Shown here: piece by piece, positions 41,877 to 43,037 of the stretch
Numbering within the stretch: position 1 is the stretch's first letter
Layout: each line of letters starts with the position of its first letter
Origin: Candidatus Latescibacterota bacterium
GTDB taxonomy: Bacteria > Latescibacterota > UBA2968
DNA: 64,000 nt
Assembly: GCA_965198115.1 (NCBI GenBank)
Contig: OZ240241.1
Span: forward strand, 5,472,001-5,536,000
Direction: 5' to 3'
Position numbers and translations under genes: made by a program
The notes under the pieces: generated by a model
Seen by the model: only the letters and a program-made list of their open reading frames with translations
What the model was told of the DNA's origin: nothing
Database searches by the model: none

Positions 41877-43037
41877 TTACTCCCACGTCAGATTCGCCGA
41901 ACTCGTGTACTCCGTCACACGCGTCTCGAAAAAATTCTTTTCCTTGGCAAGATCGATCGTTTCGCTCATCCAGGGAAAGGGGTTCTTCGCGTGGTATTTT
42001 GCGGGCAGACCGATACGCTCCATCCGACGATCGGCGATGTATTGCACATATTCTCTGAATTGCTCTGCGTTCAGACCGAGCACACCGTCCGGTAGGCAGT
42101 CCCGCGCGTAGGCAATCTCGTACTCGAGCGCCTTCTCGATCATGTCGACGATTTCGTCCTGCATTTCGTGTGTCCACACGCCTGGGTTCTCGACCTTGAT
42201 CGTATTGATCAGATCGATTCCAAAATTGAGATGCACCGTTTCGTCGCGCAGGATGTATTGAAACTGTTCACCGATACCGGTCATACGGTTCTGTCGGTGG
42301 AAGGAAAGAATCATCACGAACCCACTGTAGAAAAAGATTCCCTCCATAATGACGTAGAACCCAATGAGATTCTTCAAAAACTCCTGCTGCCCTTCGATCG
42401 TGTCGGTCGTGAACTCCGGATCCAAGACCGCAGACGTCAGATCCATCACGAATTGATCCTTGCCCTGAATCGACGAGATCTCGTGATACATATTGAAGAC
42501 TTCGCGTCCGTCGAGACCGAGCGACTCCACGATGTAATGAAACGTGTGTGTGTGAATCGCTTCCTCAAAAGCCTGCCGGAGGAGATACTGCCGCGCTTCC
42601 GAGTTCGTAATGTGCTTGAAGATCGCGAGGACAATGTTGTTGCCGACCAAACTTTCACCCGTGCTGAAGAACCCGAGATTCCGTAAAATGACCTGGCGTT
42701 CGGCCTCCGTCAGTTGATTCGACCGCCACAGCTCGATGTCGCGCTGCATCGGAACTTCGGTCGGCATCCAGTGATTGGCGCAGCCGTTAAGGTAGTGTTC
42801 CCACGCCCATTCGTACTTCAGCGGCATCAGCTGATTCACGTCCACGGCGGCGCAGTTCAACAGGCGCTTGTCGTCGACGTTGATCCGGTTGGTCAGGTCG
42901 TAGGCTTCACCGTTCGACCCGCAACATCCCGAAACCGGTATCACAGGACCATCGTGTCTTACGTCGTGTCGCGCCGGCTGCCTATTGTGTGTCGCCAGCG
43001 TCTTTGAATCATCCTCACTCCAATCGAGTACATCCAT
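41877..43037 (-). CDS. nrdB: Ribonucleotide reductase beta subunit, class Ic (R2c) signature
   Basis: [34 protein letters not shown] and [10 protein letters not shown]. Confidence 0.93.

What the first reader, a model, noticed from the sequence alone, without database searches (positions are those of the whole stretch)
41877..43037. Class Ic (Mn/Fe, tyrosyl-radical-free) ribonucleotide reductase outside Chlamydia
Seen: NrdB has Glu at the first metal ligand (FFSTGESLV, where class Ia has Asp) and Phe at the radical-Tyr position (EAIHTHTF). The C-terminal Tyr (TRVTEY) is kept, and the gene is in an operon with a genuine NrdA behind NrdR boxes. Known: this Asp-to-Glu plus Tyr-to-Phe pair defines Chlamydia trachomatis R2c, which uses a Mn(IV)/Fe(III) cofactor. 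Inference: this organism makes dNTPs with a heterobimetallic cofactor. The adjacent COG0523 chaperone and the DtxR/MntR-controlled Feo system are candidate metal suppliers.
Basis: partly seen in the sequence, partly recalled or inferred. Interest (0 to 1): 0.7.

Follow-up and report, generated by a model that had tools for sequence, protein, structure and literature searches.

The report
Ordinary class Ic ribonucleotide reductase operon
This gene encodes a Chlamydia-type ribonucleotide reductase small subunit that lacks the radical tyrosine and likely works with a manganese/iron centre, but the same type is common in many other bacteria and long known outside Chlamydia, so it is an ordinary member of a known class.

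Summary
NrdB (43037-41877, minus strand) has Glu128 at metal ligand 1, Phe166 at the radical-Tyr site, all other ligands, and W90/Y261/Y377 (C. trachomatis W51/Y222/Y338). It is 70-72% identical to C. trachomatis R2c. It follows an intact NrdA behind the genome's best tandem NrdR boxes. A Mn(IV)/Fe(III) cofactor is the likely mechanism (about 0.85, inferred, not measured). 'Outside Chlamydia' is not new. All 119 top homologues and all 80 GTDB loci fetched carry the same Glu/Phe pair, across Latescibacterota, Verrucomicrobiota, Planctomycetota, Bdellovibrionota and Chlamydiota. A 2014 review counted about 150 such sequences, RNRdb names the group NrdBzc, and the Saccharopolyspora protein is crystallised (6Y2N). 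This scan has reported the same type on other genomes. The metal-supplier idea is poorly supported: the COG0523 gene travels with cysS, sits beside nrdA in 1 of 80 loci, and no close orthologue was found in 21 relatives whose only detected RNR is this enzyme. Feo lies 27 kb away. One unexplained detail is a conserved N-terminal Cys-Cys motif that C. trachomatis lacks.

The parts
41877..43037 (-). nrdB, class Ic (R2c / NrdBzc) beta subunit, 386 aa; ligands E128, E159, H162, E232, E266, H269; F166 at the radical-Tyr site; W90, Y261, Y377
   Evidence: (PRK07209, 621.8 bits, cut-off 309)
42654..42656 (-). codon GAA = Glu128, first metal ligand (C. trachomatis E89; Asp in class Ia)
42540..42542 (-). 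codon TTT = Phe166, radical-Tyr position (C. trachomatis F127)
42921..42926 (-). Cys38-Cys39 of a conserved N-terminal GCCGxNGExYDL motif in a low-confidence tail; absent from C. trachomatis; function unexplained
43133..45997 (-). nrdA, class I alpha subunit of the P. aeruginosa/Chlamydia (NrdAz) type with two ATP cones, catalytic motifs SSCYL, NLCTE, VCNLGS, YY and a C-terminal CxxC. Likely start ATG 45997 (GGAGG 9 nt upstream); the longest ORF begins at 46084
   Evidence: (PRK07207, 1447 bits)
46295..46310 (.). NrdR box 1, perfect palindrome CCACAATATATTGTGG, overlapping the -10 hexamer of a predicted nrdA promoter
46327..46342 (.). NrdR box 2, 32 bp from box 1, weaker match
46299..46327 (-). 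sigma-70-like promoter match TTGACT-17-TATATT (10 of 12), pointing to nrdA; two such matches were found against 1.9 expected by chance, so only its position supports it
46526..47548 (+). COG0523 G3E GTPase with GCLCC motif, divergent from nrdA; stays beside cysS in relatives; not shown to serve NrdB
11487..14822 (-). DtxR/MntR-like-FeoA fusion, FeoB in two genes, and a DtxR-like palindrome at 14809-14822; a general iron-uptake locus 27 kb away, not part of the RNR operon

Best explanation
The locus is an intact nrdAB operon behind tandem NrdR boxes whose beta subunit has the class Ic signature, and it likely makes dNDPs aerobically with a Mn(IV)/Fe(III) cofactor, as the 72%-identical C. trachomatis enzyme does. 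Inferred steps, by analogy to C. trachomatis R2c: Mn(II) binds site 1 (E128, E159, H162) and Fe(II) site 2; O2 gives Mn(IV)/Fe(IV); one electron enters through Y261 and W90; the Mn(IV)/Fe(III) state oxidises the NrdA cysteine of the NLCTE motif through Y377 and the NrdA YY pair. The B12-dependent NrdJ elsewhere in the genome is likely the alternative, under the same NrdR. Metals likely come from general cellular pools, not from a dedicated neighbour.
For: Shown: residues and register. Ligand string E-E-H-E-E-H with second-sphere E158 and D265 equals the NrdBzc row of the table in PMC6370689. Y261 equals Y222, described as conserved in R2c but not R2lox. The top 13 fold matches are all C. trachomatis NrdB, 70-72% identity, rmsd 0.7-1.9 A. 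In a quick tree the protein sits in a 32-row, all-Glu/Phe group (SH-aLRT 96) with 6 Chlamydiota rows. It is the only R2-family gene in the genome. In 21 of 21 genomes of a sister genus this NrdAB is the only RNR found: no NrdJ, no NrdD, no second R2 apart from one truncated duplicate. That argues the Tyr-less protein is a working enzyme. The two best NrdR pairs in the genome precede nrdA and nrdR-nrdJ (scores 35 and 34; maxima of 10 shuffles 31-34). C. trachomatis R2c is highly active only with the mixed-metal cofactor.
Against: No metal content, EPR or activity was measured. The papers I could read characterise only the C. trachomatis class Ic enzyme, and the 2014 review says Mn/Fe loading in vivo had not been shown for any R2c. 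A manganese importer is not clearly identifiable here: no ABC-3 permease, only weak Nramp-family matches (35.6 bits at best), and one cluster A-I binding protein below all curated cut-offs. No RNA run was available to test expression.
Confidence: 0.85

Rival explanations
1. The enzyme lacks the radical tyrosine but works in this organism with a homodinuclear centre: a high-valent Fe/Fe site when manganese is scarce, or Mn/Mn as in class Id.
For: Glu at ligand 1 is shared with class Id. R2c forms Fe/Fe centres in vitro and mismetallates. Manganese import genes are unconvincing in this genome while Feo is present.
Against: 72% identity and identical first- and second-sphere residues to an enzyme that is highly active only as Mn/Fe. 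Class Id keeps the Tyr and has C/S at second-sphere position 7, where this protein has F166 and E158. [quoted passage not shown]
Confidence: 0.09
2. The class Ic enzyme depends on the adjacent COG0523 GTPase (and Feo) as a dedicated metal-loading system. Not exclusive of the best explanation.
For: The genome's only strong COG0523 match is divergent from nrdA and shares the intergenic region that holds the NrdR boxes. The arrangement is kept in G070 and G067.
Against: COG0523 matched in 1 of 80 nrdB loci, and 1 of the 56 with at least 1.8 kb upstream of nrdA. Full-length orthologues occur in 6 of 31 family genomes: beside cysS in 6 of 6, beside nrdA in 3, not beside it in 2, undetermined in 1. 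G069 keeps the gene in the syntenic block with no nrdB found in the genome. None of the 21 genomes that have only this RNR has a close orthologue (9 have weaker partial paralogues). COG0523 genes co-occur with CysS and FolE2 in zinc regulons (PMC2770081 passages), and both genes are nearby here. Feo is 27 kb away and no DtxR-like box lies at nrdAB.
Confidence: 0.05
3. The protein is not a working RNR subunit (an R2lox-like oxidase or a decaying gene), and the cell relies on its NrdJ.
For: The genome encodes a full NrdJ behind nrdR. Two family genomes (G062, G069) have NrdJ but no nrdB match.
Against: R2lox models score about 54 bits or less against 622 for PRK07209. Y261, F236, Y377 and the C-terminal tail are kept. 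It lies in an operon with an intact NrdA, and it is the only RNR found in 21 relatives.
Confidence: 0.02
4. The Glu and Phe codons are sequencing or assembly errors in a class Ia gene.
For: None found.
Against: Identical letters in contigs of runs X1 and X2. The same pair occurs in 119 of 119 homologues, 80 of 80 loci and all 28 other family genomes with an NrdB.
Confidence: 0.005

Closest known systems
Chlamydia trachomatis class Ic RNR beta subunit R2c (PDB 1SYY, 4D8F, 4M1I)
   Same: 70-72% identity, no gaps over residues 50-385; same ligands, Phe at the radical site, W51/F197/Y222/Y338 equivalents; model rmsd 0.7-1.9 A
   Different: About 39 extra N-terminal residues with a Cys-Cys motif; Gly in place of Ala before ligand 1; partner NrdA has two ATP cones (three in C. 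trachomatis per Burnim et al.); the host also has NrdJ
Saccharopolyspora erythraea R2 (PDB 6Y2N)
   Same: Non-chlamydial R2 with Glu at ligand 1 and Phe at the radical site (alignment; organism from PMC7467353); 59% identity
   Different: More distant. I could not read a paper showing its metal content. No B12 riboswitch was found in this window, unlike earlier scan notes on other class Ic loci.
RNRdb group NrdAz/NrdBz, subgroup NrdBzc
   Same: Ligand string E-E-H-E-E-H, second sphere E and D, Phe at the Tyr site (PMC6370689); many class Ic-like sequences fall in NrdAz (bioRxiv 2022.04.23.489257)
   Different: Nothing at the defining positions. RNRdb itself could not be queried.
P. aeruginosa-type class Ia RNR (NrdBza; NrdA PDB 5IM3, organism name recalled)
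   Same: Closest solved NrdA (1141 bits, same two-cone layout and C-terminal CEACQ); same NCBIfam families PRK07207 and PRK07209
   Different: Its beta subunit has Asp and Tyr and a diiron-tyrosyl radical; Asp/Tyr rows fall outside the 32-row Glu/Phe group in the tree
[quoted passage not shown]
   Same: Mn/Fe centre, Glu at ligand 1, no radical Tyr
   Different: Weak profile scores. R2lox lacks the Y222 equivalent and has Ala for F197; both are kept here.

Membership tests
Class Ic RNR (R2c, NrdBzc) | Redox-inert residue (Phe/Leu/Val) at the radical-Tyr position | tested here: met
   F166 aligns with F127 of 1SYY and with Y of the F127Y mutant 2ANI
Class Ic RNR (R2c, NrdBzc) | Glu at metal ligand 1; ligand set E-E-H-E-E-H; second sphere E and D | tested here: met
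   E128, E159, H162, E232, E266, H269; E158, D265
Class Ic RNR (R2c, NrdBzc) | Electron-relay Tyr222 and Trp51, and C-terminal radical-transfer Tyr338 | tested here: met
   Y261, W90, Y377
Class Ic RNR (R2c, NrdBzc) | Placement in the NrdBz lineage with Chlamydia | tested here: met
   32-row all-Glu/Phe group with 6 Chlamydiota rows, SH-aLRT 96, quick tree without bootstrap; C. trachomatis R2c itself was not a row but is the best PDB match
Class Ic RNR (R2c, NrdBzc) | Cognate intact class I alpha subunit | tested here: met
   NrdA 95 nt upstream with all catalytic motifs
Class Ic RNR (R2c, NrdBzc) | Active cofactor is Mn(IV)/Fe(III); maximal activity needs both metals | not testable with these tools
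   Needs metal analysis, EPR and activity assay
Class Ia RNR (NrdBza) | Asp at ligand 1 and a radical Tyr | tested here: not met
   E128 and F166
Class Id RNR (NrdBi) | Glu at ligand 1 with Tyr retained, C/S at second-sphere position 7, NrdBi lineage | tested here: not met
   F166 and E158; class Id structure 5OLK only 21% identical
R2lox | No Y222 equivalent, Ala for F197 (ligand channel), R2lox profile match | tested here: not met
   Y261 and F236 present; PRK08326 models far below cut-off
NrdR regulon | Two 16-bp boxes with a 15-16 bp linker in the RNR promoter; nrdR in the genome | tested here: met
   Boxes 32 bp apart; linker length from abstracts; nrdR before nrdJ. Binding itself is untested.

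The most novel reading that the evidence does not exclude
A large subclade of class Ic enzymes (Latescibacterota, Verrucomicrobiota, Lentisphaerota, Phycisphaerae, Hydrogenedentota, some Bdellovibrionales) carries an N-terminal Cys-Cys motif that C. trachomatis lacks, and uses it as a built-in metal-loading or redox-maintenance handle for the Mn/Fe cofactor.
Probability: 0.08. Interest if true: 0.5.

Novelty: new member of a known kind. Interest (0 to 1): 0.12.

Why it matters
Little on its own. It adds one Latescibacterota family to a class already known from many phyla. Its modest value is as a test case: in the papers I could read, nearly all class Ic biochemistry rests on C. trachomatis, and 21 relatives here appear to have no other RNR. 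The wide spread among non-chlamydial PVC, Bdellovibrionota and Latescibacterota genomes also sits poorly with the idea that class Ic arose against host nitric oxide (PMC4390871). That point follows from the known distribution, not from this gene.

Tried and rejected
COG0523 as a conserved partner: rejected by neighbourhood. Feo or DtxR co-regulation with nrdAB: no TTAGG-N4-CCTAA site within one mismatch near nrdAB (the pattern came from the Feo site itself). B12 riboswitch or other Rfam element: 0 matches at gathering score in the window. Apparent inteins in NrdB of G070 and G068: runs of N with duplicated flanks, i.e. assembly gaps. An apparent internal TGA in the G067 COG0523 gene: it lies just before the start codon, so there is no selenocysteine. 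A second R2 or R2lox and an NrdD in the genome: not found. Expression: no RNA holder listed. A loose NrdR pattern search over the window gave 41 matches against 37 expected and was uninformative; the paired, genome-wide score was used instead. The careful tree did not finish; only the quick tree is reported. Kutin et al. 2019 is not held, and Hogbom 2010 was seen only as a citation. Searches for Latescibacterota with ribonucleotide reductase and for NrdB with vicinal cysteines each returned 0 papers; both were narrow exact-word searches. No complex prediction was run.

Full report
Observation. The ORF at 43037-41877 (minus strand) gives a 386-aa NrdB. It is the only PF00268 match in the 8.43-Mb genome. 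Its best solved relatives are C. trachomatis R2 chains (585 bits), then 6Y2N (456 bits), with a drop to 140 bits for the next. From residue 50 to 385 it aligns to 1SYY without gaps at an offset of 39. My hand count from that alignment is 243 of 336 identical (72%); Foldseek reports 70-72%. The mapped residues are W90 (W51), E128 (E89), E159, H162, F166 (F127), E232, F236 (F197), Y261 (Y222), D265, E266, H269 and Y377 (Y338). The F127Y mutant 2ANI has Y where this protein has F166. Contigs of runs X1 and X2 span nrdB with no substitution, but they are one sample and probably the source.

Operon and regulation. NrdA ends 95 nt upstream of nrdB. It scores 1447 bits on PRK07207, has two ATP-cone stretches, aligns end to end with 5IM3, and keeps SSCYL, NLCTE, VCNLGS, YY and a C-terminal CxxC (their catalytic roles are recalled from E. 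coli NrdA). The likely start is ATG 45997, with GGAGG 9 nt upstream. In a genome-wide score of paired NrdR boxes at 31-32 bp (consensus recalled; linker length from abstracts) the best pair is 46295/46327 (score 35). The second-best precedes nrdR-nrdJ at G000:3337920 (34). Ten block-shuffled genomes reached 31-34, so the margin is small and the positions carry the weight. A promoter-like match pointing to nrdA overlaps box 1. The genome has nrdR and a class II nrdJ and no NrdD match.

How common it is. All 119 other proteins listed by the homologue search have E and F at these positions (the best 120 of 7,997 scored were listed, one being the query). Named ones include Latescibacterota, Rubrobacter, Thermobaculum, Bdellovibrionales, Hydrogenedentes and Verrucomicrobiota. 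All 80 GTDB loci kept (best 80 of 597 confirmed) are E/F, and 72 of 80 show nrdA within the fetched flank. The nearest are titled Latescibacterota, so the host likely belongs there. In the phylum, 29 of 168 genomes matched, all in the window's family (28 of 30 plus G000), and all 29 are E/F. Among 150 representatives at 50% clustering, those with the EXXH aligned included 52 D/Y, 29 E/F, 9 E/V, 6 E/Y, 4 E/L and 2 E/I; the rest were fragments or degenerate. A quick tree of 88 rows (the window, 29 of the 80 loci, 58 of the 150 representatives chosen for coverage and intact ligands) puts the protein with Latescibacterota inside a 32-row all-E/F group that includes Chlamydiota (SH-aLRT 96). The careful search did not finish and there is no bootstrap.

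Is it functional? In the 21 genomes of genus g6, many of them single contigs, this NrdAB is the only RNR found: one NrdA-like match each, no NrdJ N-terminal domain (0 of 21, whose control set did not ring), no NrdD (0 of 31), and one R2 each apart from a truncated duplicate in G081. The two family genomes without nrdB both have NrdJ. This argues that the Tyr-less enzyme works.

Mechanism. Shown: the residues, fold, operon and boxes. Inferred from C. trachomatis (passages of PMC4118035, PMC8463856 and PMC11883743): Mn in site 1, Fe in site 2, O2 activation to Mn(IV)/Fe(IV), one-electron reduction through Y222/W51 to Mn(IV)/Fe(III), and long-range oxidation of the NrdA cysteine. An AlphaFold model (mean pLDDT 84) matches the C. 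trachomatis structures at 0.7-1.9 A. Against: nothing was measured, and manganese import is unclear. There is no ABC-3 permease, Nramp-family matches are weak, and one cluster A-I binding protein sits in a locus with DtxR/MntR-like regulators and a DtxR-like box at G000:1228000-1233000.

Metal suppliers. The COG0523 gene is divergent from nrdA and has the GCLCC motif. It matched in 1 of 80 loci, and in 1 of the 56 with at least 1.8 kb upstream of nrdA. Full-length orthologues (51% identity or more) occur in 6 of 31 family genomes. All 6 lie beside cysS. Three lie beside nrdA (G000, G070, G067), two do not (G066, G069) and one is undetermined (G068). G069 keeps cysS, COG0523 and the downstream block with no N between them and no nrdAB. 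None of the 21 g6 genomes has a close orthologue. PMC2770081 (passages) links COG0523 to CysS and FolE2 paralogues in zinc regulons, and cysS and folE2 are nearby here, so a zinc-related role is the plainer reading (inference). Feo is at 11487-14765 behind its own DtxR-like box. PMC4118035 states that the scaffold can assemble Mn/Fe without chaperones.

What is known. [quoted passage not shown] PMC6370689 (passages): subgroup NrdBzc, defined by Phe, Leu or Val. PMC7467353 (passages): 6Y2N is the S. erythraea R2, which shows E and F. PMC9816063 (passages) places class Ic RNR in the last common chlamydial ancestor. I read no supplements. Kutin 2019 and Hogbom 2010 could not be read and may bear on which non-chlamydial R2c proteins were tested. 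Earlier notes of this scan reached the same verdict on other genomes; they are leads, not support.

One difference. Residues 36-48 ([12 protein letters not shown]) hold a Cys-Cys pair found in 107 of 119 top homologues (biased because the query has it), 31 of 80 loci and 27 of 29 family NrdBs (of the other two, one is cut by its contig end and one, G066, lacks it). In many 351-aa forms the protein begins MSCC. C. trachomatis, most Chlamydiota and the Planctomycetaceae/Pirellulaceae rows lack it. The model leaves this tail at pLDDT 42-48. One exact-phrase search found no paper. It may bind a metal or form a disulfide, or do nothing of note; I give a role in cofactor loading or upkeep 0.08.

Verdict. 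A real class Ic nrdAB operon, a new member of a known kind. Mn/Fe mechanism 0.85, dedicated COG0523 or Feo supply 0.05, interest 0.12.

Noticed in passing
window 42921-42926 (-), NrdB C38-C39: Conserved N-terminal Cys-Cys motif (CC-x7-9-[YH]DL) in a subclade of class Ic NrdB: 31 of 80 loci and 27 of 29 family NrdBs; absent from C. trachomatis; unexplained.
   Followed up: partly
window 11487-14822 (-): Feo locus: a DtxR/MntR-like-FeoA fusion with a predicted hydrophobic N-terminus, then FeoB split into a GTPase gene (13729-12911) and a membrane gene (12914-11487) overlapping by ATGA, behind the palindrome TTAGGCGTACCTAA.
   Followed up: partly
G000:C1:1227976-1233144 (L118): Second DtxR-like box ahead of a run of genes including a porin-like protein, a cluster A-I metal-binding protein and an MntR-like regulator, with another DtxR-like gene upstream; no ABC-3 permease anywhere in the genome. 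A better manganese-uptake candidate than Feo, but it looks incomplete.
   Followed up: partly
L006, L008, L010; G071, G072, G077, G078, G080, G081, G082, G087 and others: In genus g6 the nrdA-nrdB junction often holds inserted genes (up to about 11 kb, including an AAA ATPase pair and metallo-hydrolase-like genes); G081 has a truncated nrdB duplicate. It looks like an insertion hotspot.
   Followed up: no
G000:C1:3337920-3342114 (L003): nrdR-nrdJ operon with its own tandem NrdR boxes; NrdJ is present in 8 of 31 family genomes and absent from all 21 of genus g6.
   Followed up: partly
window 37801-40825 (+): PhnD/C/E-like ABC transporter whose binding protein passes TIGR04553 (putative selenate ABC transporter).
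   Followed up: no
window 46526-53739: COG0523, cysS, an M23 peptidase, hemB, sufE and folE2 lie together; COG0523-cysS adjacency is kept in 6 of 6 relatives with the orthologue.
   Followed up: partly
window 7532-8740, 33611-34819, 4736-6838, 54944-57572: Several insertion-sequence transposases, including two apparently identical copies of one type in opposite orientations.
   Followed up: no
L032 (CAMDHO010000027.1): A MAG titled Chlamydia trachomatis whose NrdB differs clearly from the PDB C. trachomatis sequence; the title is probably loose.
   Followed up: no
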